Notes: a model not told the origin generated them from the sequence alone. A stretch of DNA of 64,000 nt from Candidatus Uhrbacteria bacterium (GCA_016844925.1 JAERTI010000043.1:66642-130641); one strand, 5' to 3'. Shown: positions 46,454 to 63,470, counted from the first letter of the stretch. Program-made: numbers and translations.

Positions 46454-46506
46454 GCTGAGGCTCTCTTGATCAAATCCTCAGTGCTACTGGGGTAAAGGAA
46501 CACGAC

Positions 46507-46770
46507 ATGTTGATGATCGCTCTGACCCTCCTGATGGGCAACGCGAACGCTGGCATGAAGCGCGGTAAGGCTTCGGCCTCGGACACTACTCCCGTCAGCC
46601 TCTACCACAACGGTGAGGTGGCGGAGCTGGACCGCCAGGAGCTGGTGCAGACTCTGCACGACCTGATGCATCCCAGCTGCGAGGTGAATACCTCGCACGT
46701 CCACCGCGTGAACAAGCATGGTCTGGAAGAGGTCATCCTCATGCCGACCGAGCCGACCACCACCAACTGA
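46507..46770 (+). CDS. small secreted protein
   Basis: GGGTAAAGGA leader, signal peptide. Confidence 0.45.
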   Translation: MLMIALTLLMGNANAGMKRGKASASDTTPVSLYHNGEVAELDRQELVQTLHDLMHPSCEVNTSHVHRVNKHGLEEVILMPTEPTTTN

Positions 46771-46799
46771 CCCGACGAGGTGAACGACTTCGTCGGGAT

Positions 46800-46841
46800 C
46801 CTCAACGTAGAGCTCGAGTTTGCTCGAGACCTGCGTTGGGG
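46800..46841 (+). repeat. attC-like repeat, A-type
   Basis: CCTCAAC...GTTGGGG; preceded by cccgacgagg..ttcgtcggg hairpin. Confidence 0.6.
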
Positions 46842-46950
46842 AACCGCCCCTAAGTAAGATAACCGTCCGTGATCTGCAGCGCGCCGACATTTCCGTCGAG
46901 CAGCGCATATTGCAGCACTGGCAACTTCTGTGCGAGAGCGCGGGGGTATC

Positions 46951-47271
46951 ATGTTTCTGACTCAGATCTACAGCGCCGTGGAAGGTGACTTCAAGGCCAA
47001 CGCCGTCCGTATCACTGAGGTGGAGGCTGGCACAGGTATCTGGCTCGATCCTGAAGCTGATCCGCTCCTGGTCGTCGGTGAGTACATTCTGATGACTTCC
47101 GAAGGGAGGATTCTGGATGAGGATGAGTCCATCGAGGTCACGGTGAGGTCGCAGGGCATTCGTGTCCGCGTTCGTCTGTTCCATGATGGGCATGAGGCGG
47201 CAGCCTGGTGTCTGCTCCAGACAATCGGTAACGCGTCCATCAACACTGTCACGATCGATTGCGATGACTAA
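46951..47271 (+). CDS. hypothetical protein
   Basis: ORF within cassette. Confidence 0.45.
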   Translation: MFLTQIYSAVEGDFKANAVRITEVEAGTGIWLDPEADPLLVVGEYILMTSEGRILDEDESIEVTVRSQGIRVRVRLFHDGHEAAAWCLLQTIGNASINTVTIDCDD

Positions 47272-47380
47272 CGTTAAAGCAACCTGCACGAGACAGTACA
47301 TGACCCCGTCAGGCACGGATGACCTGGCGGGTATGACCGGGCTCAGCTCGGCACGCCTCAAGTACACGCAACGCTTGAGG

Positions 47381-47422
47381 ATCGAACGTAGAGCTCGAGT
47401 CTACTCGAGACCTGCGTTGGGG
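47381..47422 (+). repeat. attC-like repeat, A-type
   Basis: ATCGAAC...CTCGAGtctaCTCGAG...GTTGGGG. Confidence 0.55.
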
Positions 47423-47440
47423 AACGTTCCCTAGAACCAA

Positions 47441-47486
47441 ACCTCGTGCCCGCAAGGGATGTAGCCACAGTAAGAGTGGTGAGAGA
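47441..47486 (+). promoter_or_regulatory. conserved 5'-UTR motif M, copy 2 (stem CCAC/GTGG instead of CCGT/ACGG)
   Basis: compensatory change in the hairpin relative to copies 1 and 3. Confidence 0.55.
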
Positions 47487-47529
47487 ATGTGCGCCTGGGC
47501 GCACGCGGACTTGTCCGCACGGGATACAG

Positions 47530-47952
47530 ATGAAGACGCAAGCGTGTACGGCACTGGCGGTTACCCGCCGGAGTGAGCTGTACATCACGGTTCAGATCTA
47601 CGGAAGTCGCGCGATCGATGAGCCCAACATCAAGGTGCTCGCCCTGAGCGATTTCGTTCGATGGATCGCACCGGGTGTGACCGTTCAGCGCATCGCACAG
47701 AACCTGGTCCGTGTCCGTGAAATCGCCCCCGATTGGACTGCGAAGGTGGTCTACGGTGACGCCATCGGTTTGGGTGAGCCCTGCCTGCTTTCTGACAATC
47801 GCGCCGTAGTGTGTGTCTGGGCGACGGAGGAGGAGGCCTGGGATCACTGGGACGAGGTCATGGATCGCTGGCATCGGATGATGGAAGAAGATGCTCGTTA
47901 CTGGGACGAGCGGACTCTGGAAGAGCTGAGTGACTCGAGCCTGATGGCTTAA
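47530..47952 (+). CDS. hypothetical protein (141 aa)
   Basis: downstream of motif M. Confidence 0.45.
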   Translation: MKTQACTALAVTRRSELYITVQIYGSRAIDEPNIKVLALSDFVRWIAPGVTVQRIAQNLVRVREIAPDWTAKVVYGDAIGLGEPCLLSDNRAVVCVWATEEEAWDHWDEVMDRWHRMMEEDARYWDERTLEELSDSSLMA

Positions 47953-47987
47953 CGAGCCGACACTGGGAGAACGTCCCCGTGTCGGAC

Positions 47988-48058
47988 TCCCAACGTAGAG
48001 GTTGATTAACCACGTAAAACCCTTCGGGTCACGTGGCACGTCGACACCTGCGTTGGGG
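47988..48058 (+). repeat. attC-like repeat, B-type (GTTGAT ... ccacgt-aaaaccCTTCGgggt-cacgtgg ... GTCGAC acctgc GTTGGGG)
   Basis: internal UUCG-type tetraloop hairpin. Confidence 0.6.
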
Positions 48059-48073
48059 AAACCCTGCAACCAT

Positions 48074-48124
48074 CCCTCGCGCTTGGCCTGGCCAAGATGT
48101 AGCCGTGTAAAGACGGTGAGAGAA
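48074..48124 (+). promoter_or_regulatory. conserved 5'-UTR motif M, copy 3
   Basis: GATGTAGCCGTGTAAAGACGGTGAGAGAA followed by GCGGAggtTTCCGC hairpin. Confidence 0.55.
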
Positions 48125-48149
48125 CGCGGAGGTTTCCGCACGGATACGA

Positions 48150-48677
48150 ATGAAACTACGAACACCGGATGTGCACGAGGTTCGTCGGCGGGTCTACCAG
48201 TCCTGCTACGAGCTTCAGCACGCCAGGCAGGTCGTTGATGACGCCTGTCGAGCTGGTAGTTACTGGGCACTGGGCTGCGCACTCCGCGTGGAACAGATCG
48301 CTCAGCAGGCGCTGGCTGAGAATGAGAGAGCTCTGGAGAGGGAGCGTGATTACGCCATCTTCATAGAGCATTTGCGCAAGCATAGTACCGAGATTGCTCG
48401 TAGGCTTTCTCTGGTGCAGGCCCTGGAAGAAGAGTGTGCGTTCCTGGAGAAGAAGTGGGACGACGCTCGAGCTGATTTGGCCCATCAGCTGCGCCTTGCC
48501 AAGCGCCCCGGCCGCCCCGGAAAGAACGCGGCCGATCTCATTGGTGGTTTTGAGGCGGAGGTGGAGATTCACTGCCGCAACTATTTCGAGAAAGAAAGGG
48601 AACTCAGGTGCGCGCGTGAGTGGTGGTACAGGCTCATGTACCCCTGCCACCATAGGCATCTCAAGGTACGCGCGTAA
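48150..48677 (+). CDS. hypothetical helical protein (175 aa)
   Basis: downstream of motif M. Confidence 0.45.
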   Translation: MKLRTPDVHEVRRRVYQSCYELQHARQVVDDACRAGSYWALGCALRVEQIAQQALAENERALERERDYAIFIEHLRKHSTEIARRLSLVQALEEECAFLEKKWDDARADLAHQLRLAKRPGRPGKNAADLIGGFEAEVEIHCRNYFEKERELRCAREWWYRLMYPCHHRHLKVRA

Positions 48678-48726
48678 GACCTTGAGCGAGCTTGCTCGAC
48701 AGAGGAGTACGTCCTCCTGTCGGGCT

Positions 48727-48797
48727 CCTCAACACAGAGGTTGATTAACCACGTAAAACCCTTCGGGTCACGTGGCACGTCGACATCTGCGTTGGGG
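48727..48797 (+). repeat. attC-like repeat, B-type
   Basis: near-identical to 47988..48058. Confidence 0.6.
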
Positions 48798-48828
48798 AAA
48801 CCCTGACTCAGACCTATAGGAGGCCTTT

Positions 48829-49197
48829 GTGCCGCACACCGACAATCAGACTCTCTTCCTTCGGCTGACTCTTGCGGCGTGGATCGCCCAGGAGTTCGGG
48901 ATCGAGCCAGATATGGCCGAGATCGACGCGTTCCTCGCGAAGCTGCAGGACGAAGAGGCCCTGAATAACTTCGATGACCGGGACTCCCGACCGGGGTTCT
49001 GGATCATGGAGAACAAGCTCTTCCAGTACCACCATCACCACAAGCCCGGCTTCTACATCTACAACGTCGACGGTGAGAACTGGCACCGCGACTACAACCG
49101 CATCGACGATCTCAACCGGATCGTCTGGCCCAACCCGGTGATGACCGGCTCGGTTGGCAGCGACTGTGGTCGCTGGGGCTGCTGGGGTCGCTACTAG
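48829..49197 (+). CDS. hypothetical protein with HHHH tract
   Basis: AGGAGG RBS followed by GTG start. Confidence 0.45.
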   Translation: MPHTDNQTLFLRLTLAAWIAQEFGIEPDMAEIDAFLAKLQDEEALNNFDDRDSRPGFWIMENKLFQYHHHHKPGFYIYNVDGENWHRDYNRIDDLNRIVWPNPVMTGSVGSDCGRWGCWGRY

Positions 49198-49298
49198 CAC
49201 CCAGCACACAACCCCGTTAGGCACGGACGACCTAGCGGGCACCCACGTAAAGACCTTCGGTCCACGTGGCACGGCCCAAGTCACGACGCGACTTGGGA

Positions 49299-49340
49299 CC
49301 TGAACGTAGAGCTCGAGTTTGCTCGAAACCTGCGTTGAGG
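49299..49340 (+). repeat. attC-like repeat, A-type
   Basis: preceded by H1 hairpin, UUCG hairpin and cccaagt/acttggg hairpin. Confidence 0.6.
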
Positions 49341-49392
49341 GCTGAGGCTCTCTTGAACACACCCCCGGCAATGTCCGGGTAAAGGCTGCGAG

Positions 49393-49599
49393 ATGTGGAA
49401 TTGGCTGAACCGACTTCTGGGCATCAACCCCAAGAAGAAGGAGTCCACCACCAGGACGAGGACTGGGCTCGGCTCTCAGAACGACGCTTGGCGTCGTGAG
49501 CGCTGCCCGCTTCCTGAGTTCGATTTCAGGGGCCCCACGCGTCGCCGGATTGAGCGAGAGCTCGCCGAACGAGCGCACGCCCGCACCGAACGCTACTAG
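49393..49599 (+). CDS. small basic protein (68 aa)
   Basis: cccggc..ccggg-TAAAGG leader. Confidence 0.35.
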   Translation: MWNWLNRLLGINPKKKESTTRTRTGLGSQNDAWRRERCPLPEFDFRGPTRRRIERELAERAHARTERY

Positions 49600-49628
49600 C
49601 CCGACGAGGTGAACGACCTTGTCGGGAT

Positions 49629-49670
49629 CCTCAACGGAGTTCTCGATAAGATCGAGAGTTCCGTTGAGAG
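49629..49670 (+). repeat. attC-like repeat, C-type (CCTCAAC ggagtt CTCGAT aaga TCGAGA gttcc GTTGAGA)
   Basis: same architecture, different L-boxes. Confidence 0.55.
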
Positions 49671-49805
49671 ATTTTCAAAAATGATTGTTCTTCCGGGGCG
49701 CAGAATACAATTGTGCTCCCTGGAAGGCTGGTCAGTAATCGGGATTGATCAGTCTCTTCTGCTTAGGCAGAGCCAGCATTTGCTGGAACACACGAAGGAG
49801 AAACA

Positions 49806-50135
49806 GTGACCCGCTGTGATAAATGTGGTCTCCCTGTAACAAGGGAAAACAACGCACTTCTGCTTTCGATCGTCGTCAAGCGCATGGTGAAGCACGGAGT
49901 GGATTACGTTCCTGGCGAGTGTAACGCCCTCGATCTCATGGCCATTGTTGTGCTCAGGGGTCGACACTTGCTGCCGGTAACCGAAGGTGATGAGGTGGTT
50001 TGCACTGGCTCCCCAAGCCGCGCACAGTACCTGCCTGGTCAGCCTGAGGATACGCGCGGGTTTCCGCTTGATGAGAATCTTCGTCCCGTCTACGACGCGG
50101 CTTACAATCGTCTGACATCCGGCAGGCCGATCTGA
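49806..50135 (+). CDS. hypothetical protein with N-terminal CxxC
   Basis: AAGGAG RBS followed by GTG; AT-richer cassette. Confidence 0.45.
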   Translation: MTRCDKCGLPVTRENNALLLSIVVKRMVKHGVDYVPGECNALDLMAIVVLRGRHLLPVTEGDEVVCTGSPSRAQYLPGQPEDTRGFPLDENLRPVYDAAYNRLTSGRPI

Positions 50136-50203
50136 TGTAGTCTCATCACTTGCTACGCCCCCCCGACCGAGGACCCGTCTGACAGCAGATGGGGAACGTC
50201 CTC

Positions 50204-50244
50204 GTTCGGGCTCCCAATGGAGCGTTCGATAAGATCGAATGTTC
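50204..50244 (+). repeat. attC-like repeat, C-type variant with compensatory R-box change (CCCAAT / ATTGAGG)
   Basis: C to T in R'' matched by G to A in R'. Confidence 0.5.
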
Positions 50245-50320
50245 CATTGAGGGAAACCTCTTGCACGACAGCTGACGGCTTGCCGTCATAACCATAAGCA
50301 GTCCCTCCCTGGAGTAACAC

Positions 50321-50575
50321 ATGTGGACTGACTGGTTTGAGAACGAGCACGTTGACGCTCTGCTGCAGAGCGCCGCATCGAACTTCCACCTGGTGCAGGT
50401 GGAGATGGTGGACGGAACGATCCACGAGGGTGAAGTCAGCCTCAACGGCGGCATCGAGATCGTCCGTGAGGGTGAGGGAACGACGGAGCTCGACAGCGAG
50501 CAGATCGCCCGCATGCGCCTGACGACCTGGCGCGAGGTCCCGCCCGAGGACCCGTTCAAGGTCGACTGGGACTGA
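50321..50575 (+). CDS. hypothetical acidic protein (84 aa)
   Basis: ORF within cassette. Confidence 0.45.
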   Translation: MWTDWFENEHVDALLQSAASNFHLVQVEMVDGTIHEGEVSLNGGIEIVREGEGTTELDSEQIARMRLTTWREVPPEDPFKVDWD

Positions 50576-50663
50576 GTCCCACCGCACACCCGCCCAGGCA
50601 CACACGACCTGGCGGGTACGACCGAGCTCAGCTCGGCACGCCTCAAGTGAGACGCACTTGAGG

Positions 50664-50705
50664 ACCGAACGTAGAGGTTGAGCCTGCTCGACCCTTACGT
50701 TGGGA
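50664..50705 (+). repeat. attC-like repeat, D-type (ACCGAAC gtagag GTTGAG cctg CTCGAC ccttac GTTGGGA)
   Basis: preceded by H1, CCGAGCTcAGCTCGG and cctcaagtg/cacttgagg hairpins. Confidence 0.5.
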
Positions 50706-50733
50706 AACTTGAAACAGCTAAAGGGGAAAACCC

Positions 50734-51279
50734 ATGAGTGACATGGATACGAGAGTGGGGACGGAGTGCCTCGTGCAGATCGAAGAGATCGACGAGCAGA
50801 TTGAGCGGCTGCAGCAGCGACAGAAGGAGCTGATGGAGCAGGCTCGCGTCTCCACGGCCGTGGCCTACGTGGCCATTCTGGACGTGCAGACCCAGGCCGT
50901 AGACATCTTCCCGGTGTCGTCGGACGACCGGCTCAACGCGTACGGGAACCAGTGCGACTGCGACTTGATGCTCAACACGTGCTACTGCGACGAGAAGTGG
51001 ACGTCGGTCCGCAACTTCTCGTTCGAGGTCATGCTCGACGACCGTCCGTCCTGGCAGAGGCGCCACTCGCCTCGCAAGGATGGTGTCCAGCTCGCCTTCG
51101 AGTACTGGTGCGACAAGCGCGACTACTTCAAGACCTCCACGAGGGGTCTGCCGTACGGTGAGGAGTGTGAGCAGGTGGACTGGGAACGACCTCGCCGCAA
51201 GATGCTGCTGTACGCCACCAGGACCGAAGAAGAGGCTCGCACCTGGGCCGCGTCCAAGACGCAGCAGGCCGCTGGCTAG
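50734..51279 (+). CDS. Cys-rich hypothetical protein (181 aa; CDCD...CYCDEKW)
   Basis: ORF within cassette. Confidence 0.5.
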   Translation: MSDMDTRVGTECLVQIEEIDEQIERLQQRQKELMEQARVSTAVAYVAILDVQTQAVDIFPVSSDDRLNAYGNQCDCDLMLNTCYCDEKWTSVRNFSFEVMLDDRPSWQRRHSPRKDGVQLAFEYWCDKRDYFKTSTRGLPYGEECEQVDWERPRRKMLLYATRTEEEARTWAASKTQQAAG

Positions 51280-51325
51280 AGTCAGAACAACGGCTCGACC
51301 GAGGAGTACGTCCTTGTGTCGGGCT

Positions 51326-51367
51326 CCTCAACGTAGAGCTCGAGCTGACTCGAGACCTGCGTTGGGG
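51326..51367 (+). repeat. attC-like repeat, A-type
   Basis: CCTCAAC...CTCGAGctgaCTCGAG...GTTGGGG. Confidence 0.6.
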
Positions 51368-51438
51368 AGTGCGATGGATGCCCGTAGGGCAACGCACAAC
51401 CTGTACCCGTCCTGGAGAGTCCGGGAAGGAGAGCCAAC

Positions 51439-51654
51439 ATGGCTTGGAAGATTGTGAGTGTGGTGCTGGGCGTGAGTGCGTTCGTGCTCGGTTGCGTCTG
51501 GTTTGTTCTGCTGTGCATCATGACCTTTGGTGTGCTCACCCCTGAGGGGAGCATCGACCAGGTGCTGGACGGCATCTGCTGGACGCTCGCTTGCGGAGCC
51601 ATTGGCATTCCGCTGGCGACGCTGTCGTTGAAGGCTTGGGAGCGCGGAGCGTAG
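51439..51654 (+). CDS. small membrane protein (71 aa)
   Basis: AAGGAG RBS, two TM helices. Confidence 0.45.
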   Translation: MAWKIVSVVLGVSAFVLGCVWFVLLCIMTFGVLTPEGSIDQVLDGICWTLACGAIGIPLATLSLKAWERGA

Positions 51655-51736
51655 CTCCAACACACAAACTCCTGTCAAAGGAGTACGGCCGATACTTATC
51701 GGCACGGCGGGCATAAGAGACATCACGTCTCGCCCG

Positions 51737-51790
51737 TCGCCACTGACTTGGTTTCGATGCAGTAAGATCGAGATCAGATCAGTGGTGTGA
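51737..51790 (+). repeat. possible highly diverged attC-like repeat (CCACTGA ... TCGAT gcagtaag ATCGA ... TCAGTGG)
   Basis: architecture conserved, R-boxes unrelated. Confidence 0.3.
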
Positions 51791-51919
51791 AAACCACTTC
51801 GCAGGATGTTCGTGGGGATTGGTCGACCACGGACGCGAAATTTCTAATCCGAAAGGTACTCTAAGCAGGCTTGCTCGGCTTGCTGCGACCAAAGAGTTGA
51901 GTTCTACAAGTGAGGACTC

Positions 51920-52651
51920 ATGAGCAAGATGGAAGAGATCCGCCAGACGGTGGCGGACAACATGCATCGCGTGGCCAAGCTCGGCCAGTGGCCCAGCCAC
52001 ATCAACGCCGAGAAGAGCCTGCTGAGCCGCATTCCCGAGCCGGGCAAGGAAGCCCCTGGGTTCGACGCCGGCATCGCCTGCGCGCTGGGCCTGATCCCGC
52101 GCGACAAGCAGCAGCTGGCGGCGCAGCTGCACGCCAACTACACCCCCAAGGCGGTGAAGCTGGTGCGGCGCCAGTCCGTTCAGATGCACGAGGACGCCCC
52201 CACCACCTGGTGGCTCGCCGCGTGCTGGCTCTGCGACGAGGCCGGTGTGAGTCAGCGAGACTTCCTGCGCCAGGTGAGTGCGTTCAAGCGCCTCGCTGCG
52301 GATCCGCAGACCAGGCGCAAGGTCGCCCGGGAGGAGCTGGAGCGCAAGAAGAAGCTCTTCGTCGTTCTGGACGGCATCGCCTACGGCGCTCAGGATGGTG
52401 CTGCGCAGGGAGCGTACATCGCTGGGGTGGACCTCGCGGTGGTGTGGATGGAGAAGTACGGTATCTACTTCGTCAGCACCTACCACGAGAGCCTCGGCCT
52501 GGAGGACTTCGTCTGGTCCGACCGTGTCGACGACCAGGGGCGGCTCATGAGCGGCCCGATCCACGGCTCGCGCCAGTTCGTGAAGACCGGCTCCCAGGAG
52601 GAGCTCGGCAAGATGCTGGAGATCGCCAAGGCCCACCTGGCCATCGGCTAG
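51920..52651 (+). CDS. hypothetical protein, paralog family X (PGFDAGIACAL, TWWLAA, SLGLEDF.WSD)
   Basis: about 45% identical to 53453..54202. Confidence 0.6.
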   Translation: MSKMEEIRQTVADNMHRVAKLGQWPSHINAEKSLLSRIPEPGKEAPGFDAGIACALGLIPRDKQQLAAQLHANYTPKAVKLVRRQSVQMHEDAPTTWWLAACWLCDEAGVSQRDFLRQVSAFKRLAADPQTRRKVAREELERKKKLFVVLDGIAYGAQDGAAQGAYIAGVDLAVVWMEKYGIYFVSTYHESLGLEDFVWSDRVDDQGRLMSGPIHGSRQFVKTGSQEELGKMLEIAKAHLAIG

Positions 52652-52737
52652 ATCTCGTCGAGCTCAGCTCGACAAACGACCCTGTTAGGCACGGACGACC
52701 TGACAGGAGCACTCCCAAGTCATCACGCGACTTGGGG

Positions 52738-52847
52738 ACTCAACGGAGAGGTTGATACGAATATTCCTCGAGCAACGTCGAGAGGCTGTATATGCAGCAC
52801 TTCGACAGGCTCAGTGAATATTCGCGTGATTGACACCTGCGTTGGGG
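52738..52847 (+). repeat. attC-like repeat, long B-type variant (110 bp) with nested 10-bp stem ACGAATATTC/GAATATTCGT
   Basis: ACTCAAC...GTTGAT...TTGAC acctgc GTTGGGG. Confidence 0.5.
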
Positions 52848-52897
52848 AAACTGCTTTTCCCACGGTCCGGTTCACGCCGGAAAAGGCAATAGCTGAA

Positions 52898-55842: not shown

Positions 55843-55848
55843 TGAATC

Positions 55849-56784: not shown

Positions 56785-56830
56785 CCTCAACGGAGAGGTT
56801 GATTCGCGAGAATCGACACCTGCGTTGAGG
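56785..56830 (+). repeat. attC-like repeat, short B-type
   Basis: CCTCAAC ggagag GTTGAT tcgcgaga ATCGAC acctgc GTTGAGG. Confidence 0.55.
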
Positions 56831-56871
56831 TGTTACTGAACATCTTGAATCGTCCCACACAGGAAGCAAGC

Positions 56872-57054: not shown

Positions 57055-57125
57055 GCTGAGGCGAGGCACGTCCTCACGTTGGAGGATGGTGTATAGAGAA
57101 GACGACTTAGCCCAAGGAGGTGCTC

Positions 57126-57260
57126 ATGCACCGAGATGAGTCACAACAGAAAGAGCGAGACGGCATCCACATGGCCACCATGTTCGGTCTTCTCGCGGCG
57201 AGCCTCGCTGTCTGGGGACTGGTGTTCTACGGAGCTTGGCTGCTGCTGGCCTGAGTCGGC
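57126..57260 (+). CDS. small membrane peptide (44 aa)
   Basis: AAGGAGG RBS; hydrophobic C-terminus; not in ORF track. Confidence 0.3.
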
Positions 57261-57451
57261 TGACAGCACACGCTGGCGAGCGCAAACGCAACGGCCGTGC
57301 GCGATTCCTGGTTACGATGACCAGTTGAGTCGCGACACGGCAACCCATCTGACTTCTGGATCTGGATTGAGAAGTCAGATGGGGAAACCCAACACCTGAT
57401 TCACGGGCCAGCGGGCCCACTGACCCCGGTCGCCGGGGAGAAAGGGAGACG

Positions 57452-57658
57452 ATGCTTAAAGGCATCATCACGTTCGTGCTCTCATGGTTCGATGTTGATA
57501 CCGATCGCCCGATGATCACATTCTTCGCGATCATTGTCTTGGCGATTGTGGGCGGGTTTAGCGTTGACTCGCTCAAGGGAGAGGTTGAGGAGCTGAAGCT
57601 GGCCGTGTGTCAGTGTCAGTGCGAGCAAGGCAAAGCGCTTTGTGGAAAGGGTGAGTGA
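57452..57658 (+). CDS. small membrane protein with CQCQCEQ tail
   Basis: first of 4 overlapping small membrane ORFs. Confidence 0.4.
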   Translation: MLKGIITFVLSWFDVDTDRPMITFFAIIVLAIVGGFSVDSLKGEVEELKLAVCQCQCEQGKALCGKGE

Positions 57659-57659
57659 T

Positions 57660-57833
57660 ATGTGGAAAACTGATGAGCGGTTTTACACCAAGTGCACCTT
57701 CATGGTTTCCGTATTGCTCCTATGCGCGCCGTTGTTCTTCGGCACGTGGGAACAGATCAAGACACTCTCTACAGAGCGAGATGCTCTAGAGGTCCAGCTC
57801 TACGAGCTTGGCTGTGCGCAGGAGAAGAAATGA
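57660..57833 (+). CDS. small membrane protein
   Basis: start overlaps preceding stop. Confidence 0.35.
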   Translation: MWKTDERFYTKCTFMVSVLLLCAPLFFGTWEQIKTLSTERDALEVQLYELGCAQEKK

Positions 57834-58120
57834 AACTCAAGATTAAGATGCTACTTTCACTGGCGGTCGTCTACGCCATGTACATGACGGTCATTCAGCT
57901 CGCATGGATGCACTTCATCGGATCGCTTTGGCGAGTTGTGGTGATCTTGGTGGCTTTTGTCATCGGTTGCATCTTTCACGGAATCATCTTGAAGGCTAGC
58001 GGCGAGGTAATCGATTCGTCAGATTCGGTCCTTGTTGGACAGCTTGCATCTGTGGCTCACGCGAGTCTGTACGCGCTGGTGATGTTCGGCATTCCGTTGA
58101 CCATCGCGCAGTTGTTCTAA
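57830..58120 (+). CDS. small membrane protein (96 aa)
   Basis: ATGA start/stop overlap. Confidence 0.4.
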   Translation: MKLKIKMLLSLAVVYAMYMTVIQLAWMHFIGSLWRVVVILVAFVIGCIFHGIILKASGEVIDSSDSVLVGQLASVAHASLYALVMFGIPLTIAQLF

Positions 58121-58130
58121 GGAGATTGAG

Positions 58131-58412
58131 ATGAACGAAGTTCTCAAGGTCTGGCTCTACGCACTTGTGAGCGCACTGTTGATCAACGGCGTGGCTCTCG
58201 GGTTCTCTGTTTTCAAGCTGGCTGATCCCATGATGTGGCAAGCAGCAGGCATGCTTGCAAGCGCGGCATCAGTCGCCGCCTTGGTTCCTACCATCAAGCG
58301 CTTCAAATTCTTGATGGACTACGTGTCTAACACGACATACTTCCAGGTGCTCGGTGTGAGCGCCTATCTCTGGATCATCTTCCCCCTGCAGTGGTGGGAG
58401 TGGATTCAGTAA
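58131..58412 (+). CDS. small membrane protein (93 aa)
   Basis: AAGGAG RBS, three TM helices. Confidence 0.45.
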   Translation: MNEVLKVWLYALVSALLINGVALGFSVFKLADPMMWQAAGMLASAASVAALVPTIKRFKFLMDYVSNTTYFQVLGVSAYLWIIFPLQWWEWIQ

Positions 58413-58644
58413 GGCTCTGACGAGCTAAACCCGTAGCAGGTTCGGAATCAGGATCGTGGTTGTAAAGACCAGTTCTGATTCATCTGAGGCGGGAAACGGT
58501 TTACGCGACCCAAGTTGACGCAGACTTGGGGCTACCTACATGTACTTAAACCTTGAGTGCAGCTAGGTGGTCTTGATCTCAGAAGTTTGAGGCGGTAGGG
58601 TCTTAAACTCCTGGGATGAATGAATCATCCTGGTAGGAGGGTGT

Positions 58645-59127
58645 GTGCCAGGACGGATCTACACGCAGAAAGAGGTGCGCGAGAAGCAAGAAAAACTTCT
58701 CGAGCTCTATCAGGAGGCAAAGCGCATTGCCCTGCAGGTGGCAGAGGCCGCCTTCGAGGAAACCGGTGCGAAAGAGACGCTTTTGCGTCAGTATGATGAT
58801 CTGCAGCTTGAGATCGAGTTCTCAGGCGGTGATCAGATCGGCTGGATGGTGTGCACCGGCAGTGGGCACAATCTCATCTTTGCCAAGCTGTTCCAGTTTG
58901 AGTGCTACTTCTCCGAGAAGAGAGAGGGAAGGCCTCACATCTTTGTCCGGTGGAGCGGTGAAGGGTTCATGGTGGTCGTGGACGACTGCCCCGCGGTGCA
59001 CGTGGACTACGGCGTGGACATCCTTTACGGCGAGTACACGATTCGCATCTTCCGCAACACGGAAGAGATCGACGAGTGGTCAAAGACCAAGCAGGCTGAG
59101 CACATCGCTCGCACACGCGTCGAGTAA
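58645..59127 (+). CDS. hypothetical protein (160 aa)
   Basis: GGAGGG RBS followed by GTG. Confidence 0.5.
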   Translation: MPGRIYTQKEVREKQEKLLELYQEAKRIALQVAEAAFEETGAKETLLRQYDDLQLEIEFSGGDQIGWMVCTGSGHNLIFAKLFQFECYFSEKREGRPHIFVRWSGEGFMVVVDDCPAVHVDYGVDILYGEYTIRIFRNTEEIDEWSKTKQAEHIARTRVE

Positions 59128-59221
59128 TTCGACGAGTCTGCCACGCAGACCAACACCGGCAGGGTGAAGCCGGTACGCTATGACAAGCAGAACACCCGGA
59201 CGCTTGTCACTACTGACCCGC

Positions 59222-59262
59222 GCTCGATAAGTTCGAGAGCGGATCGGTGGATGTTCTATCTG
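59222..59262 (+). repeat. G-type hairpin repeat (ACTGACCCGCGCTCGA n4 TCGAGAGCGGATCGGTGG)
   Basis: 16-bp imperfect stem, variable 4-nt loop; four copies. Confidence 0.55.
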
Positions 59263-59352
59263 CACCAAACACCCGTGATCTGCATGCTCGGGGGTAATGA
59301 TGCCCCTTGAGACAAGCAGCACCGGCCCTTCTGCTGAGAGGCAGGAGCGACA

Positions 59353-59949
59353 ATGGGACGTGAGCAGGAAATTGATGAGCGACTGACGCGCCTAGAGATC
59401 GAGACGCACCTGGATACGTTGTACGCTTACAGAGAGAGACTCAGGGTGAAGATGGATGATCTCCAATGGCACTATGAGCGAATTCCATTCATGCAGTCTG
59501 AGGAGCTTTTTAGGAAGCAGGTTCATGCTGCTGGTCTGGAGATTGCGCATGTGCAGCGGCAGCTTGATGCTAGTGATGAGATGATCAGGAGCTTCAAGCG
59601 ACAGGTCGCCAGTCACAGGGCTGCCCAAGGGCTGGTCGTCGTTCAGGATGTTGATGATGGTGGACTGAGTCTGGTACAGGGAACAAAGTTTCCGACTCCA
59701 AGAACGGTATCTCATCACTGGTTCGTGCGATTGCTGCTGGCAGCCAAGATCCTTGAAGTGGATCACGGTGCGGCCGCAGAGCAGGCCTCTCAGGGGCTTG
59801 AGGTGGTCGACTCCGTTGACCGCGGCGGACTGACCGTCTCGTCCGGGGGAGGGCAGCTCGCCCTTACTGATAACAAGACCACGGAGCCACTCCTTCAGGA
59901 ACCTACACGTTCCTGGTGGCGAAGGTTCACGTCATGGCTGACGTCATGA
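59353..59949 (+). CDS. hypothetical protein (198 aa)
   Basis: AGGAG RBS. Confidence 0.5.
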   Translation: MGREQEIDERLTRLEIETHLDTLYAYRERLRVKMDDLQWHYERIPFMQSEELFRKQVHAAGLEIAHVQRQLDASDEMIRSFKRQVASHRAAQGLVVVQDVDDGGLSLVQGTKFPTPRTVSHHWFVRLLLAAKILEVDHGAAAEQASQGLEVVDSVDRGGLTVSSGGGQLALTDNKTTEPLLQEPTRSWWRRFTSWLTS

Positions 59950-59992
59950 CAAGTAAACATTACGACGGGTGGACAATCGTGTTCACCCGGCT

Positions 59993-60031
59993 ACTGACCC
60001 GCGCTCGACAAGTTCGAGAGCGGATCGGTGG
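59993..60031 (+). repeat. G-type hairpin repeat
   Basis: loop caag. Confidence 0.55.
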
Positions 60032-60085
60032 ACGTGAGTTCACTGGAACACTGTCTCGGCAAGGCCGAGAGAAAGGACTGACGCG

Positions 60086-60601
60086 ATGCGTTGGTTGATC
60101 ATGGTGGTTGTCTTGAACCTGTTGCCAGGCACCGTCCTGGCTGGCGAGTTCATGCACAGTCCACCGCACCTGCAAAAGGTGCAGAGGGCCATGCGAGTGG
60201 TCCATGGTGATGGGTACGTGCCGAGGGAAATCAAGCTGGAACGCTTCGAGTGTTACCAGAATGCGTTTCTCTCTTTTGTGGACGTGCTAGACGCACAAGT
60301 GGAGGCGGCAGAGACGGGGCTGGTTCAGCTCAGTTTCACCGTCGATTTTCTGCGTTGTGCTCAAGTGCATGTTCCTGGAGAAGTCGGCATCTTCATGCCC
60401 GCATGGGAGACGGCCGTCAACATCGCTCTACAGCGAGAGGCCAAGCAGGCACTGAGGCGTCTGCGTAGGGATTACACCCAGCAGGATCGCAAGAAGCTCA
60501 TGAGGCTGCTGCGACTCAGGGGCATCACGCTTCTGGAGATCGGTACGCATCCTGAGGAGCTGCGCAAGTTGCGTCGTTCGACCACGAAGATGCAGAAGTA
60601 A
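60086..60601 (+). CDS. secreted protein (171 aa)
   Basis: signal peptide. Confidence 0.5.
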   Translation: MRWLIMVVVLNLLPGTVLAGEFMHSPPHLQKVQRAMRVVHGDGYVPREIKLERFECYQNAFLSFVDVLDAQVEAAETGLVQLSFTVDFLRCAQVHVPGEVGIFMPAWETAVNIALQREAKQALRRLRRDYTQQDRKKLMRLLRLRGITLLEIGTHPEELRKLRRSTTKMQK

Positions 60602-60628
60602 GTCTGCTTTTCTGAAAGGGTGATAGAG

Positions 60629-60955
60629 ATGAATGACGAGTTTGATCAGTTGCCCCTTCCGTTGATTCGCGTGCTCGCGGAACTTCCAGGGGTGGAGCCA
60701 CCCAATGATCCGTGCTGGATCCAGCTTGATGATGAGGATCTTCAATGGTTCCTCCGTGGGTTGCAAGAAAGGCCCAAGCTCCTCAAGGGAGTGCAGGTGG
60801 AATTGAGCGTTGAGGTTACCGATTTGGGTGATCTGACCAGACGGAGCCTCGTTGAGATGCTCTGCGAAAGATCGGACGAGATCCTTGGATTGAAGGTCAG
60901 GGTCTTTTCCACGCACGAGCAGCTGGGAACGCTGCTCTACGGCCTGAGGCAGTAA
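60629..60955 (+). CDS. hypothetical acidic protein
   Basis: second ORF in the same cassette. Confidence 0.45.
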   Translation: MNDEFDQLPLPLIRVLAELPGVEPPNDPCWIQLDDEDLQWFLRGLQERPKLLKGVQVELSVEVTDLGDLTRRSLVEMLCERSDEILGLKVRVFSTHEQLGTLLYGLRQ

Positions 60956-60974
60956 ACGCTCAGGCAATACCCAC

Positions 60975-61132
60975 AAGCGTTCATGTTCCTTGGTTGACCA
61001 GCTCGGTCAGAGGCAAGGAGGAACAGCGATTGTGGGAGACGGTGAGATACCGTCAACGAGCCCAAGTCATACGGACTTGGGACTACTGACCCGCGCTCGA
61101 GAGATCGAGAGCGGATCGGTGGACACAACGTT
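60975..61132 (+). repeat. about 150-nt structured element ending in a G-type hairpin, copy 1
   Basis: about 85% identical to 61845..61998 with compensatory changes. Confidence 0.55.
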
Positions 61133-61174
61133 CATCGGAATCTCATCTCCGCATCGTGGAGAGAAGGGAAAGAG

Positions 61175-61462
61175 GTGCGTAAGTACTTCGTCTACATTTT
61201 TTTGCTTGGAGCGGTCTTCAACATCTGTCTGATCATTGCCTCTCGGACGCTCACGTTCGAGATGCAGGGATTTTGGCTGGTGATGCTTGGTGGGGTTTTG
61301 TTCGGATTTGGTCTGGGTCTCATGTTGGCGCACCACGGTCGTCAGGTTGTCCAGTACGTGCGGATGTTGCCTTCAGAGCGCTCCATCATCTTCCAACTTC
61401 TGGCCTCCATCATGGTGATGTTCTCCATCTTGCCGGTAGTGCTTGTACTGCTGGTGGGTTAG
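61175..61462 (+). CDS. small membrane protein (95 aa)
   Basis: GTG start, three TM helices. Confidence 0.45.
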   Translation: MRKYFVYIFLLGAVFNICLIIASRTLTFEMQGFWLVMLGGVLFGFGLGLMLAHHGRQVVQYVRMLPSERSIIFQLLASIMVMFSILPVVLVLLVG

Positions 61463-61463
61463 G

Positions 61464-61826
61464 GTGCAGTCGCAGGCAGAGCCCCTGGGTTACCTGGGCA
61501 TCATCCGTCGGCTCAAGGGTGGGGCGTGGCGCTTCAAGGTCTACGAGGTCCTCGACAAGGAACAGGTGGAAACGCTCCCCGGCTTCAAGAAGAAGGTGAA
61601 TCCGCCCATACGCTTTTTCGGCGCGGGCGCACACCTGGAGTTCACTACGCGCGGGTGTACGCACATCATCGGGCACATGCAGGAATTCAGACTTGGCAAG
61701 AGTCTGAAGTTCATCTACTACTGCGCCGCGTTGCACGACAAGGATGTGGACCTCGAGTGGTACGCACGCCAGATGTGCAGCAATCTGATCATGAACGGGT
61801 TCGAGCTGACGCCTGAGTCAACGTGA
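61464..61826 (+). CDS. hypothetical protein (120 aa)
   Basis: GTG start overlapping previous stop. Confidence 0.4.
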   Translation: MQSQAEPLGYLGIIRRLKGGAWRFKVYEVLDKEQVETLPGFKKKVNPPIRFFGAGAHLEFTTRGCTHIIGHMQEFRLGKSLKFIYYCAALHDKDVDLEWYARQMCSNLIMNGFELTPEST

Positions 61827-61844
61827 TCAAGAGTGACAGCCCAC

Positions 61845-61998
61845 CTTCGTTTAGGTTCCTTTGTTGACCAGCTCGGTCAGAGGCAAAGAGGAACATCGGA
61901 TGTGGGAGACGGTGCAATACCGTCGACGACCTCAAGTCAAACGGACTTGAGGGCACTGACCCGCGCTCGAGTAGATCGAGAGCGGATCAGTGGTTAGC
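61845..61998 (+). repeat. about 150-nt structured element ending in a G-type hairpin, copy 2
   Basis: paralog of 60975..61132. Confidence 0.55.
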
Positions 61999-62111
61999 CA
62001 CTGTGAACTCCTCGTGCCCTTTGGGTATAGCTGGGAGGAAAGCCCAGTGAGAGGAATCTGTGCAGGCCGTGAGGTCGCATAGAGCGGGCGAGAGTCCGTG
62101 ATGAGTAGAAG

Positions 62112-62534
62112 ATGAGTGAAGTCTGGTGGGAAATCGCCGTAGTGTTGATGCTTGCCTTGTTGGGACTTGGCATGATGGAAATCCTGATCCTGGTCCTCGG
62201 GCGGATGACCATTCTGTGGTATAGGCGTCAGCCGTTCCACCTGGTCTGGCGCAAGGGCTGTGACTACGAGATCATCCCGCTGCGCGTCGGGCAGATCGTG
62301 GAGCTGGATACGGAGCTCTTCGCCGAAGCGCTCGCCGAGGGTTTCGTGCAAGTGACTCGTGGGGACCATGTCCCCATGATCGTTCGGGAGGGCTATGTGC
62401 ACTCCCGGCGTGTGGATGGCTGCAGCTTCAAGCTGTACGTCGGCTCCAAGTCCTACCAGCGCGCTGAATCGTTCGTCCGGCGCCGCAAGGTCGTCAACGG
62501 GCTCCGTGCCACGTTCGGGTACGATCCCAAGTAA
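62112..62534 (+). CDS. hypothetical protein with N-terminal TM (140 aa)
   Basis: ORF within cassette. Confidence 0.45.
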   Translation: MSEVWWEIAVVLMLALLGLGMMEILILVLGRMTILWYRRQPFHLVWRKGCDYEIIPLRVGQIVELDTELFAEALAEGFVQVTRGDHVPMIVREGYVHSRRVDGCSFKLYVGSKSYQRAESFVRRRKVVNGLRATFGYDPK

Positions 62535-62578
62535 GCAGGCGAGCTACGCGCTCACCGTGAGGATGCTCTCCTCCGGTG

Positions 62579-62645
62579 GGCTCCTCAACAGAGAGGTTGA
62601 CCACGTAAAGCCCTTTGGGCCACGTGGCAAGATCGACAGCTCTGT
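62579..62645 (+). repeat. attC-like repeat, B-type variant (internal gcccTTTGgggc hairpin)
   Basis: compensatory variant of the B-type internal hairpin. Confidence 0.55.
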
Positions 62646-62697
62646 TGGGGAACCATCCCTACAAACGTCCCGGCGTATCCGGGTAAAGGACACAGAG

Positions 62698-62859
62698 ATG
62701 GTAGAACAGGCATTTTTCGCAGGCGTGATCGCCGCGGGACTCGCTCTTCTTCTGGGAGCGCTGCTTCAGCGCTGGTTCAAGCACATCAAGAACAACGCGA
62801 CCCTGGAGACGACCAAGCCCTGGGCGGACGATGGAGGTGAAGATGGAGATGAGTCCTGA
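62698..62859 (+). CDS. small membrane protein (53 aa)
   Basis: cccggc..ccggg-TAAAGGA leader. Confidence 0.4.
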   Translation: MVEQAFFAGVIAAGLALLLGALLQRWFKHIKNNATLETTKPWADDGGEDGDES

Positions 62860-63286
62860 GGCAACGATCTACCTCACTGGAGTGGGCGTCGTAGCAGTAC
62901 TGGCTCTCGGCTTGTACGTGTACTTCCTGATCCGTTCCTCGCAGAAGCTGTGGATCCTCCACACCATGCGGGTGAATAAGGGTCCCGTCTACGCGTTCGC
63001 GTCGGCGGTCTCCTGGGGCGTTCCCTACACCTGGGTTCATGCACAAGACCAGCCTTCGTCATCGTCGCTGTTTGTGAAGCAGGTGAGCAAGACAACTCTG
63101 TGTGCTTCACTCTCGGTTGGTGAGGAGTATCACAAGACCGAGATTGGTCTGGAGCTTGATCAGGAGATGTCGTTCAGCTACAAGACTGGGGTCATGATCC
63201 AGGAAATCCACGTGTTTCCGGATGAGCAGGACGTCCTTCGGTTTTGTCGAGATCACGAGATCCACCTGGCTTCGGTCTTCGACTAG
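62849..63286 (+). CDS. membrane-anchored protein, paralog family Y
   Basis: GGAGGTG RBS; paralog of 63471..63914. Confidence 0.5.
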   Translation: MSPEATIYLTGVGVVAVLALGLYVYFLIRSSQKLWILHTMRVNKGPVYAFASAVSWGVPYTWVHAQDQPSSSSLFVKQVSKTTLCASLSVGEEYHKTEIGLELDQEMSFSYKTGVMIQEIHVFPDEQDVLRFCRDHEIHLASVFD

Positions 63287-63384
63287 TGAACCTACGTCCA
63301 TGGCGGCGGCCTAACGAACACGCAACGAGAGCTGTCCTTGTGACTCCTGGTGACGACAACCGGTAGAGACACAGGACGGCTTCC

Positions 63385-63425
63385 TCTCTGGCTTCTCGAG
63401 TTCGCTCGAGGGGCAGGAGAGGGAA
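63385..63425 (+). repeat. diverged A-type attC-like repeat (CCTCTC ... CTCGAGttcgCTCGAG ... GAGAGG)
   Basis: R-boxes changed but still complementary. Confidence 0.4.
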
Positions 63426-63470
63426 TCATCCCTACGAACGTCCCGGCGTATCCGGGTAAAGGATAGAGAG

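What the first reader, a model, noticed from the sequence alone, without database searches (positions are those of the whole stretch)
46478..63470. Recurring hairpin plus GGGTAAAGGA translation-initiation leader on four cassettes
cccggc-nnnn-ccggg (or cagtgctactg) hairpins immediately followed by TAAAGGA and 8-10 nt to the start codon occur at 46478-46506, 49364-49392, 62665-62697 and 63442-63470.

The last two are about 45 nt identical (CATCCCTACrAACGTCCCGGCGTATCCGGGTAAAGGA) and precede the family-Y paralogs. This looks like a portable 5'-UTR/RBS module moving with or between cassettes.
Basis: seen in the sequence. Interest (0 to 1): 0.5.

Follow-up and report, generated by a model that had tools for sequence, protein, structure and literature searches.

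The report
Shared hairpin–ribosome-site leaders in cassette array
The four sites are real copies of two short leader modules, each a small hairpin placed directly against a ribosome-binding site; they sit in front of unrelated small genes in a large, strain-variable, hairpin-punctuated gene array of an uncultured Uhrbacteria-like bacterium, an array that resembles an integron but fails several integron tests.

Summary
GGGTAAAGG occurs exactly four times, all on the + strand, against 0.24 expected. Each copy is the 3' arm of a hairpin, then T, then a Shine-Dalgarno sequence (AAAGG[A], complementary to the 16S tail UCCUUU), 7 nt before a start codon.

There are two leader families. Family A is at 46454 and 49341. 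Family B is at 62648 and 63421. A sister strain holds further copies. The ORFs directly behind them are unrelated, and the Y paralogs are only 25% identical, so recent cassette duplication does not explain the copies.

The leaders are the last module of mosaic spacers in an array of about 46 small ORFs (41.5 to beyond 64 kb). The array lacks promoter-like and terminator-like sites and lies in a candidate-phyla-radiation (CPR) chromosome. The spacers hold hairpins Ha to Hd and a roughly 19-bp interrupted "core" helix with a variable tip. They fold better on the sense strand. Strains differ by whole-cassette indels whose junctions lie inside the modules.

My best reading is RNA-level punctuation and translation-initiation modules that also serve as homology for cassette shuffling. 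An integron-type attC system is the main rival: no integrase was found, extrahelical bases are absent, the strand bias is the wrong way, and there is no fixed crossover point. I rate it a new variant of a known kind, of moderate interest.

The parts
46454..46506 (+). Leader A, copy 1. GCTGAGGCTCTCTTGA, then a 7-bp/3-nt-loop hairpin at 46476-46492, T, SD AAAGGA at 46494-46499 and a 7-nt spacer. It starts immediately after the core helix 46412-46453.
46507..46770 (+). 87-aa ORF behind leader A copy 1. GC3 is 0.84 and there is no Pfam hit. The cassette is absent from the sister strain.
46771..46841 (+). 3' chassis of the leader-A cassette 1: hairpin CCCGACGAGGTGAACGACTTCGTCGGG followed by the core helix 46800-46841. 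It is 94.6% identical over 37 nt to 49600-49636.
49341..49392 (+). Leader A, copy 2. Same first 16 nt as copy 1, hairpin CCCGG/CCGGG at 49364-49379, T, AAAGG at 49381-49385, 7-nt spacer.
49393..49599 (+). 68-aa ORF behind leader A copy 2. It is unrelated to the 87-aa ORF.
49600..49669 (+). 3' chassis of the leader-A cassette 2: the same hairpin variant followed by the core helix 49629-49669.
62648..62697 (+). Leader B, copy 1. GGGAACCATCCC mini-hairpin, the RAACGTCC motif, hairpin at 62669-62683, T, AAAGGA at 62685-62690, 7-nt spacer.
62698..62859 (+). 53-aa ORF directly behind leader B copy 1. Its sequence suggests a single-pass membrane peptide (read by eye, no tool used).
62831..63286 (+). 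Y paralog Y151. It has its own GGAGG just inside the end of the 53-aa ORF. It is 25% identical to Y147. The whole cassette 62701-63420 is missing in the sister strain.
63421..63470 (+). Leader B, copy 2. Hairpin at 63442-63456, AAAGGA at 63458-63463, 7-nt spacer.
63471..63914 (+). Y paralog Y147 (GTG start). Its ortholog in the sister strain is 89% identical in protein and carries leader B.
46412..46453 (+). Type I core helix. An outer stem (CCTCAACGTAG/CTGCGTTGAGG in the canonical copies, TTTCAACGTAG/CTGCGTTGAGG in this one), a 2x2 internal loop, inner stem CTCGAG/CTCGAG and a 4-nt tip. Other copies: 45133, 46800, 47381, 47988, 48727, 49299, 50664, 51326, 52738, 53330, 54415, 55039, 55801, 56110, 56785 and 62583.
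63382..63423 (+). Type II core. Same 19-bp geometry, but the outer stem is replaced by TCCTCTCTGG/GCAGGAGAGGG (compensatory changes, with T.G wobbles). It directly precedes leader B copy 2.
59210..59250 (+). Type III core, CTACTGACCCGCGCTCGA..TCGAGAGCGGATCGGTGG. Other copies at 59991, 61083 and 61953. Degenerate copies at 44197, 44582 and 51738.
51410..51438 (+). An independent leader of the same design: TCCTGGA-GAG-TCCGGGA followed by AGGAG. Others are at 57419-57451, 60054-60085 and 61146-61174.
41512..64000 (+). Array of about 46 small + strand ORFs with mosaic hairpin spacers. It starts after rpsP (S16) in both strains. In the sister strain it runs about 7 kb past the Y147 ortholog.
41256..41284 (+). 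Candidate array promoter TTGACA-17 nt-(TG)TATTGT. It is the only strong sigma-70-like site facing the array.
22031..22046 (-). 3' tail of the 16S rRNA, ...GAUCACCUCCUUUCUA. UCCUUU pairs with the leaders' AAAGGA.

Best explanation
The four sites are copies of two modular translation-initiation leaders. They belong to the non-coding 'chassis' of a hypervariable gene-cassette array in an Uhrbacteria-like (CPR) chromosome.

Shown:
- Each leader is a short G+C-rich hairpin whose 3' arm ends in GGG, followed by T and the Shine-Dalgarno AAAGG(A), 7 nt before the start codon.
- The SD itself stays unpaired in the predicted folds.
- The same leader sits before unrelated ORFs.
- The two leader-A cassettes also share their 3' ends.
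- The array lacks promoter-like and T-run terminator-like sites, whereas neighbouring ordinary genes have both.
- Spacers fold better on the sense strand.
- Strains differ by whole cassettes, with junctions inside the modules.

Inferred:
- The array is read as long polycistronic RNA from the promoter at 41256.
- The spacer hairpins punctuate that RNA. The roughly 19-20-bp interrupted core helix resembles an RNase III-type processing or stability element.
- The hairpin abutting the SD protects the 5' end of each cistron and keeps its ribosome site exposed, so every promoterless ORF gets a ready-made initiation region.
- Because the modules are nearly identical between cassettes, they also serve as portable homology. 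Ordinary recombination then deletes, duplicates and swaps cassettes, and this spreads the leaders.
For: - Motif statistics and anatomy.
- The anti-SD tail of the window's own 16S.
- A hairpin ends 0-3 nt before the SD at 8 of 16 array starts, against 0.66 expected. Five independent 7-bp/3-nt-loop stems have different sequences, and their only non-Watson-Crick pairs are T.G or G.T.
- The leaders are discrete modules flanked by unrelated sequence. The ORFs behind them are unrelated.
- Leader-A cassettes share 54 nt at the 5' end (98%) and 37 nt at the 3' end (95%) around unrelated ORFs.
- Promoter-like and terminator-like sites are not enriched at 44-64 kb. Genes at 27-39 kb each have a T-run terminator, a TTGACA promoter and an SD. 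One strong promoter faces the array.
- Sense-strand fold z is -5.6 against -3.1 for the antisense strand, and the sense strand is better in 25 of 26 spacers.
- In the core arms, 51 pairs are G.T and 24 are A.C, of which 18 are one conserved internal-loop position.
- The core helix has 92% of cells paired against 83.8% in shuffles, and 9 pairs change on both sides.
- All modules lie only on the + strand and only inside the array.
- Cassette-sized indels between strains have junctions 3' of a core, 5' of a core and inside leader B, with 17-162 nt of shared repeat at the junction.
Against: - There are no expression data, so transcription, processing and any effect of the hairpin on translation or stability are all inferred.
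- Each leader alone is no more stable than its shuffles.
- Modules Hb and Hc are perfect palindromes with no strand preference, and G.U counts in MFE folds are equal on the two strands. The sense-strand bias therefore rests on the core, on Hd and on the unique hairpins.
- A sense-strand bias fits single-stranded + strand DNA equally well.
- The copies are paralogous repeats, so the covariation counts are inflated by relatedness.
- Homologous recombination explains loss and exchange of cassettes, but not how unrelated ORFs first acquired the same chassis.
Confidence: 0.5

Rival explanations
1. This is an integron-type system. The core helices are attC-like single-stranded DNA recombination sites, the array is a cassette array lacking a nearby integrase (CALIN-like, with the integrase elsewhere in the genome), and the leaders are simply the 5' ends of cassettes that share an origin.
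For: - The array holds small ORFans in one orientation, lacks promoter-like and terminator-like sites, and has near-identical structured sites between the ORFs. Cassette content differs between strains.
- Type I cores carry YYTCAAC...GTTGRGG, with AAC/GTT invariant in 24 of 24 copies, and a tip that varies from 4 to about 110 nt.
- Several junctions fall directly 3' of GTTGRGG.
- Two cassettes share both non-coding ends around unrelated ORFs.
Against: - No tyrosine recombinase lies in the array or at either flank. The flanks are rpsP/rlmN on one side and an SMC_N ATPase on the other.
- The arms are of equal length, so there are no extrahelical bases. The 'spacer' is mostly paired. Both features define attC (PMC5027507).
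- Folding is favoured on the coding strand, whereas attC sites are recombined as folded bottom strands (PMC5027507).
- Type II and III cores lack AAC/GTT.
- Crossovers lie 3' of the core (J3), 5' of the core (J5) and within leader B (J10).
- Most cores are 41-46 nt, and 2-4 extra hairpins precede them.
Confidence: 0.2
2. The modules, leaders included, are selfish small repeats (MITE-like or spread by gene conversion) that proliferate inside the array. The SD they carry is incidental or was co-opted, and the hairpin has no role in expression.
For: - Hb occurs both free-standing and inserted in core tips.
- A roughly 75-nt tip insert has 1 copy in the window and 7 in the sister strain, at orthologous cores.
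- The leaders are not thermodynamically exceptional.
- Leader B shares RAACGTCC with Hd.
Against: - Orientation is strict and the order is fixed: hairpins, then core, then leader, then ORF.
- The SD-to-start spacing is exactly 7 nt at all four sites.
- Independent stems of different sequence keep the same geometry against the SD.
Confidence: 0.15
3. The leader is a promoter. TTGAWC would serve as the -35 element and TAAAGG as the -10 element, 7-8 nt before the ATG, giving leaderless transcripts.
For: Leader A contains TTGATC or TTGAAC. TAAAGG lies 7-8 nt from the start codon.
Against: - The spacer is 20-21 nt in all three A copies, and TAAAGG lacks the conserved final T.
- Leader B has no -35 element.
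- The promoter scan finds nothing at these sites.
- AAAGGA matches the anti-SD tail.
Confidence: 0.04
4. The copies are leftovers of a recent duplication of paralogous cassettes.
For: Copies 3 and 4 lie 773 nt apart, near the two Y paralogs.
Against: - The Y paralogs are 25% identical, while the leaders are 43 of 45 identical with unrelated flanks.
- Leader B also precedes a 45-aa ORF in the sister strain.
- Leader A precedes three unrelated ORFs.
Confidence: 0.03

Closest known systems
Integron gene-cassette arrays / CALINs with attC sites (features as in PMC5027507)
   Same: The array holds co-oriented, mostly ORFan cassettes without promoter-like sites, separated by structured sites that are similar to one another. 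Each site has a conserved base and a variable tip. The inverted ends resemble YYYAAC/GTTRRR. Cassette content varies between strains. Unrelated ORFs share common non-coding ends.
   Different: No integrase is adjacent. There are no extrahelical bases. The central spacer is largely paired. Folding is favoured on the coding strand. Two core types lack AAC/GTT. No fixed crossover point is seen. The spacers are long and hold several hairpins, and they include a shared SD leader.
PeSL 'mobile regulatory cassettes' of T4-like phages (PMC2839356, PMC4122927)
   Same: Short conserved regulatory repeats flank small ORFan genes in a hyperplastic region. Indels and replacements between close relatives have their junctions in the repeats. 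The repeats act as points of homologous exchange between otherwise unrelated sequences.
   Different: PeSLs are composites of a terminator stem-loop and an early promoter in phage genomes. Here there is no promoter and no T-run terminator. The repeat carries a ribosome-binding site instead, and the host is a bacterial chromosome.
REP/BIME intercistronic palindromes and RNase III processing hairpins of the phage T7 early operon (from my own knowledge, not checked here)
   Same: Mosaic combinations of palindromic units lie between cistrons of one transcript. An interrupted helix of about 20 bp with an internal loop lies between genes. The presumed role is mRNA stability or processing.
   Different: REPs are dispersed genome-wide, whereas these modules are confined to the array. 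No cleavage or stabilisation has been shown.
5' stem-loop plus SD mRNA stabilisers (for example the B. subtilis aprE leader and the cryIIIA STAB-SD; from my own knowledge)
   Same: A hairpin sits close to the 5' side of a strong SD in the leader.
   Different: Those are single-gene leaders at a transcript's 5' end. Here the design recurs on many internal cistrons and is shared as a sequence module.

Membership tests
Integron attC site / cassette array | Inverted core sites R'' RYYYAAC and R' GTTRRRY | tested here: inconclusive
   Type I cores read YYTCAAC...GTTGRGG. AAC/GTT is invariant in 24 of 24 copies, but the first and last positions are off consensus. Type II and III cores have no AAC/GTT.
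Integron attC site / cassette array | Extrahelical bases on one arm | tested here: not met
   Both arms are 19 nt and pair in register, and no bulged base is conserved.
Integron attC site / cassette array | Unpaired central spacer between the R and L boxes | tested here: inconclusive
   Only a 2x2 internal loop (A.C and G.A at positions 12-13) is conserved. The rest of the 'spacer' pairs.
Integron attC site / cassette array | Variable terminal structure | tested here: met
   Tips range from 3-4 nt up to 25-112 nt and differ between strains at orthologous cores.
Integron attC site / cassette array | The bottom (non-coding) strand is the folded, recombined strand | tested here: not met
   The sense strand folds better: z is -5.6 against -3.1, in 25 of 26 spacers. 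In the core arms G.T 51 against A.C 6 outside the conserved loop.
Integron attC site / cassette array | IntI integrase and attI next to the array | tested here: not met
   Both ends were examined (rpsP/rlmN and SMC_N). About 30 + strand cassette ORFs, four long antisense ORFs within the array, and the two genes at the sister strain's far end were scanned, and none is a recombinase. The rest of the genome could not be searched.
Integron attC site / cassette array | Crossover at a fixed point (G/TT of R') | tested here: not met
   Junctions lie 3' of the core (J0, J1, J3), 5' of the core (J5) and inside leader B (J10).
Integron attC site / cassette array | Promoterless co-oriented cassettes whose content varies between strains | tested here: met
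PeSL-type mobile regulatory cassettes | Composite of a stem-loop terminator and an early promoter | tested here: not met
   Promoter-like and T-run terminator sites are not enriched in the spacers.
PeSL-type mobile regulatory cassettes | Repeats flank ORFans, and indel junctions lie in the repeats | tested here: met
REP/BIME elements | Dispersed through intergenic regions genome-wide | tested here: not met
   No module copy occurs in window 1-44 kb, even between the GC-rich genes at 27-39 kb. Only 64 kb of the genome was available.
RNase III-type intercistronic processing hairpin | Interrupted helix of about 20 bp on the transcript strand | tested here: met
   A 17-19-bp helix with a conserved internal loop, supported by covariation and favoured on the sense strand.
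RNase III-type intercistronic processing hairpin | Endonucleolytic cleavage in vivo or in vitro | not testable with these tools
   No transcript data were available.
Shine-Dalgarno translation-initiation region | Complementarity to the 16S 3' tail at 5-9 nt from the start codon | tested here: met
   AAAGGA pairs with UCCUUU of the window's own 16S tail. The spacing is 7 nt at all four sites.

The most novel reading that the evidence does not exclude
The array could be a gene-capture platform of a kind not yet described, found so far only in this CPR lineage. Unrelated small ORFs would be packaged in a common non-coding chassis: a 5' leader with hairpin and SD, and a 3' hairpin plus an interrupted helix with a variable tip. 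The structured sites would fold on the coding strand and would be handled by a recombinase or RNA-based mechanism other than IntI. In that case the shared leaders would be the signature of cassette genesis, not of later homologous exchange.
Probability: 0.18. Interest if true: 0.8.

Novelty: new variant of a known kind. Interest (0 to 1): 0.5.

Why it matters
If the reading holds, this small-genome CPR bacterium keeps a region of 24-30 kb or more of fast-changing ORFan genes, and by eye many of them encode small membrane or secreted proteins. A standard set of hairpin modules expresses and reshuffles these genes, and one of the modules supplies the ribosome-binding site. That would be a simple, integrase-free way to build an integron-like gene reservoir. 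It would give a concrete case of non-coding 'chassis' sequences shared by unrelated genes, which bears on the unsolved question of how integron-type cassettes are made. The neighbouring backbone genes apparently do not use SD sequences, so the array may also rely on a distinct mode of translation initiation. All functional steps are still untested.

Tried and rejected
- Rfam at gathering thresholds over the whole window, and at E <= 5 over 41-64 kb, found no family in the array.
- Exact-pattern scans for the core, for Hd and for leader B in genome contigs, metagenome contigs (two scans) and viral contigs (two scans) found nothing. The repeats appear lineage-specific, or the collections lack this organism.
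- Look-ups of window cassette proteins mostly failed. Cluster members of Y147 and of the 72-aa protein gave the sister-strain contigs.
- The closest GTDB relative (Uhrbacteria MAG, RlmN 64% identical) has no array next to rpsP/rlmN.
- The 243-aa cassette protein's homologs lie in ordinary contexts.
- Pfam on about 30 cassette ORFs, four long antisense ORFs and two flanking genes gave no recombinase and only one sub-threshold hit (Zincin_1). PADLOC and PHROGs gave nothing.
- I rejected a promoter reading of the leader.
- Leader folding energy alone is not significant.
- Counting G.U pairs in MFE folds of both strands is uninformative, 152 against 144.
- A loose genome-wide scan for hairpin plus SD was too noisy, so I replaced it with a test anchored on annotated starts.
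- The AlphaFold model of the 243-aa family (pLDDT 97) has no significant PDB fold match. The best Foldseek hit has E = 8e-3 and TM 0.28, among DHH-type phosphoesterases.

Full report
**1. The observation.** The four sites exist as described. GGGTAAAGG has four exact matches in 64 kb, all on the + strand, at 46490, 49377, 62681 and 63454. Dinucleotide shuffles give 0.24, and 0 of 100 shuffles reach four. With one mismatch allowed the motif is no longer enriched: 11 matches against 7.7 expected. The signal is therefore these four copies.

Each copy is built the same way. The GGG is the end of a hairpin's 3' arm. Then come T, AAAGG(A), seven bases and a start codon. The window's own 16S rRNA ends ...CACCUCCUUUCUA, so AAAGGA is a six-base Shine-Dalgarno (SD) sequence at canonical spacing. 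In the predicted folds the SD is unpaired and the hairpin ends one base upstream of it. As isolated 50-mers the leaders fold no better than their shuffles (z from -0.7 to +0.9).

**2. Two families, not one, and not a duplication.** Alignments A1 and A2 show two unrelated modules.

- Leader A is GCTGAGGCTCTCTTGA, then a variable hairpin, then GGGTAAAGG. It lies at 46454 and 49341, with a third copy in a sister strain (L002:1705).
- Leader B is GGGAAyCATCCCTACrAACGTCCCGGCGTATCCGGGTAAAGGA. It lies at 62648 and 63421, and in the sister strain at L002:9958 and 10989.

The ORFs directly behind leader A (87, 68 and 79 aa) are mutually unrelated. So are those behind leader B (53 aa, Y147 and 45 aa). 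Y151 and Y147 share 25% of residues, while their leaders are 43 of 45 identical and sit between unrelated sequences.

The two leader-A cassettes also share their 3' ends. They have 54 nt in common at the 5' end (98%) and 37 nt just after the stop codon (95%), with nothing in common in between. They are a common chassis carrying different cargo.

**3. The context.** The window is a bacterial chromosome. It holds a 16S rRNA gene, tRNA-Ile and tRNA-Phe, a SAM riboswitch, type IV pilus genes, thrA/asd/thrC and pyrD, and rlmN and rpsP. The closest GTDB genome by RlmN is a Candidatus Uhrbacteria MAG at 64% identity. Every other hit is below 41%.

From 41.5 kb to the end of the window lie about 46 small + strand ORFs. 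None of the roughly 30 scanned has a Pfam, PADLOC or PHROG family above threshold.

Their spacers are mosaics of a few hairpin modules in a fixed order:

- Ha, then Hb or He, then Hc or Hd.
- A 'core' made of an outer stem, a conserved 2x2 internal loop, an inner stem and a tip of 3-112 nt.
- Often a short hairpin directly against the SD.

All modules lie only on the + strand and only in the array.

The core comes in three sequence types with the same geometry. On 26 copies (25 type I and the one type II), 92% of cells pair against 83.8% in shuffles. Nine pairs change on both sides, and slid controls give 30-47%. These copies are paralogs, so the shuffle control overstates significance.

**4. 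The leader design is general in the array.** Of 16 array starts with a recognisable SD, 8 have a hairpin of at least 5 bp that ends 0-3 nt before the SD, against 0.66 expected. Five of them are 7-bp stems with 3-nt loops and different sequences:

- CCTCAGT/ACTGGGG
- TCCTGGA/TCCGGGA
- TCTCGGC/GCCGAGA
- TCTCCGC/GTGGAGA
- CCCTGGC/GCTGGGG

Their only non-Watson-Crick pairs are T.G or G.T. This is the best evidence that the hairpin matters.

**5. Which strand folds.** Sense-strand spacers fold with a mean z of -5.6 against -3.1 for the antisense strand. The sense strand is better in 25 of 26 spacers. The raw totals are -2084 and -1824 kcal/mol.

In the core arms there are 51 G.T pairs and 24 A.C pairs, and 18 of the A.C pairs are the one conserved loop position. 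Hd shows the same bias. Hb and Hc are symmetric. This points to a structure selected on the transcript, or on single-stranded + strand DNA. It is the opposite of the bottom-strand rule for attC sites (PMC5027507).

**6. Expression signals.** The array shows no excess of sigma-70-like promoters or T-run terminators. The minus-strand genes at 27-39 kb each have a T-run terminator, a TTGACA-type promoter and an SD. One strong promoter (TTGACA-17-TGgTATTGT, 41256-41284) faces the array. Polycistronic transcription from it is an inference.

**7. Strain comparison.** Contigs from several other metagenomes (L002-L006, L090-L093) carry one sister strain. Shared cassettes are 84-96% identical to the window, and one region is only 78% identical. 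In both strains the array starts right after rpsP.

The strains differ by at least ten cassette-sized indels or replacements. Both window leader-A cassettes and the cassette behind leader B copy 1 are specific to the window. The 79-aa leader-A cassette is specific to the sister strain.

The junctions lie inside the repeats, with 17-162 nt of shared sequence, but not at one position. Several lie directly 3' of GTTGRGG (J0, J1, J3). One lies 5' of the core (J5). One lies inside leader B (J10).

**8. Interpretation.** I favour RNA-level punctuation modules that end in a hairpin-plus-SD leader and that double as portable homology for cassette shuffling (confidence 0.5).

The integron reading (0.2) fits the overall architecture, the AAC/GTT ends of type I cores and the shared chassis. 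It fails on extrahelical bases, strand bias, the absence of an integrase at either end, core types II and III, and the lack of a fixed crossover.

A purely selfish-repeat reading (0.15) fits the spread of tip inserts. It does not fit the strict geometry against the SD. I reject the promoter and duplication readings.

**9. Limits.** I had no transcript data, no access to the rest of the genome, only two strains, and no independent lineage with related repeats.

Noticed in passing
window 1-27000 versus 27000-64000: G+C jumps from about 48% to about 60% near 27 kb. The two parts also start translation differently. None of 12 backbone gene starts inspected (ten between 611 and 24271, plus rlmN and rpsP at 39.3-41 kb) has an SD. 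Most genes at 27-39 kb, and 16 of 24 array genes, have a strong one. Independent assemblies confirm the junctions, so this is not a chimera. It looks like two acquired islands flanking rpsP-rlmN.
   Followed up: partly
window 41291-41445 (+): Between the array promoter and the first ORF lies a structured segment of about 150 nt (z -3.8). It ends in a long hairpin followed by T6. It could be a small RNA or an attenuator that gates read-through into the array. It has no Rfam match and is about 90% conserved in the sister strain.
   Followed up: partly
window 52756-52829; L002 208, 879, 2439, 4623, 6867, 9868: A self-folding insert of about 75 nt (..GAATATTCCTCGAGCAACGTCGAGAGGCTGT..GAATATTCG..) sits in the tip of core helices. 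It has one copy in the window and seven in the sister strain, including at orthologous cores that have short tips in the window. It behaves like an element targeted to the tip, or one spread by gene conversion.
   Followed up: partly
window 48010-48038, 48749-48777, 53352-53380, 62601-62629 versus 49243-49271, 54983-55011: The same hairpin module Hb (CCACGTAAARNCCTTYGGNYCACGTGG) occurs both as the tip of a core helix and as a free-standing hairpin upstream of Hc.
   Followed up: no
window 45113-63443 (+): RAACGTCC occurs 9 times on the + strand of the array: 7 times in the loop and 3' arm of Hd and twice in leader B. The window as a whole has 14 matches against 4.7 expected. Leader B may derive from an Hd-like module, or both may share a binding motif.
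   Followed up: no
window 51920-52651, 53375-54202; L002 16303-17043: The 243-aa cassette protein has three paralogs in the arrays. It belongs to a family widespread in Parcubacteria: 203 hits at about 50% identity, found in ordinary gene neighbourhoods. The AlphaFold model has pLDDT 97 and pTM 0.90, but no significant PDB fold match.
   Followed up: partly
L089 9884-9984 and 10728-10828: In another Parcubacteria genome (GCA_027425155.1), the homolog of the 243-aa protein and the next, unrelated gene each have the same 101-nt upstream leader (92% identical) running up to the SD. Shared leaders before unrelated genes may be more common in this group.
   Followed up: partly
window 54210-54371, 55849-56067; L002 5519-5704: These are small Cys-rich paralogs that end in ..GCYCEPxPEWQEYCHCW. 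They have no homologs outside these two strains.
   Followed up: partly
window 42778-44128: Three tandem paralogous cassettes (27-29% identical proteins) have 91%-identical upstream segments of about 117 nt (43159-43275 and 43644-43760). Two of the three are absent from the sister strain.
   Followed up: no
window 40417-40953 (-): Ribosomal protein S16 carries a C-terminal tail of about 90 residues rich in Ala, Glu and Lys. The tail is encoded by degenerate 15-33-nt repeats.
   Followed up: no
window 22031-23527 (-): The 16S rRNA gene stands alone. thrC lies directly downstream of it, and the window holds no 23S or 5S gene.
   Followed up: no
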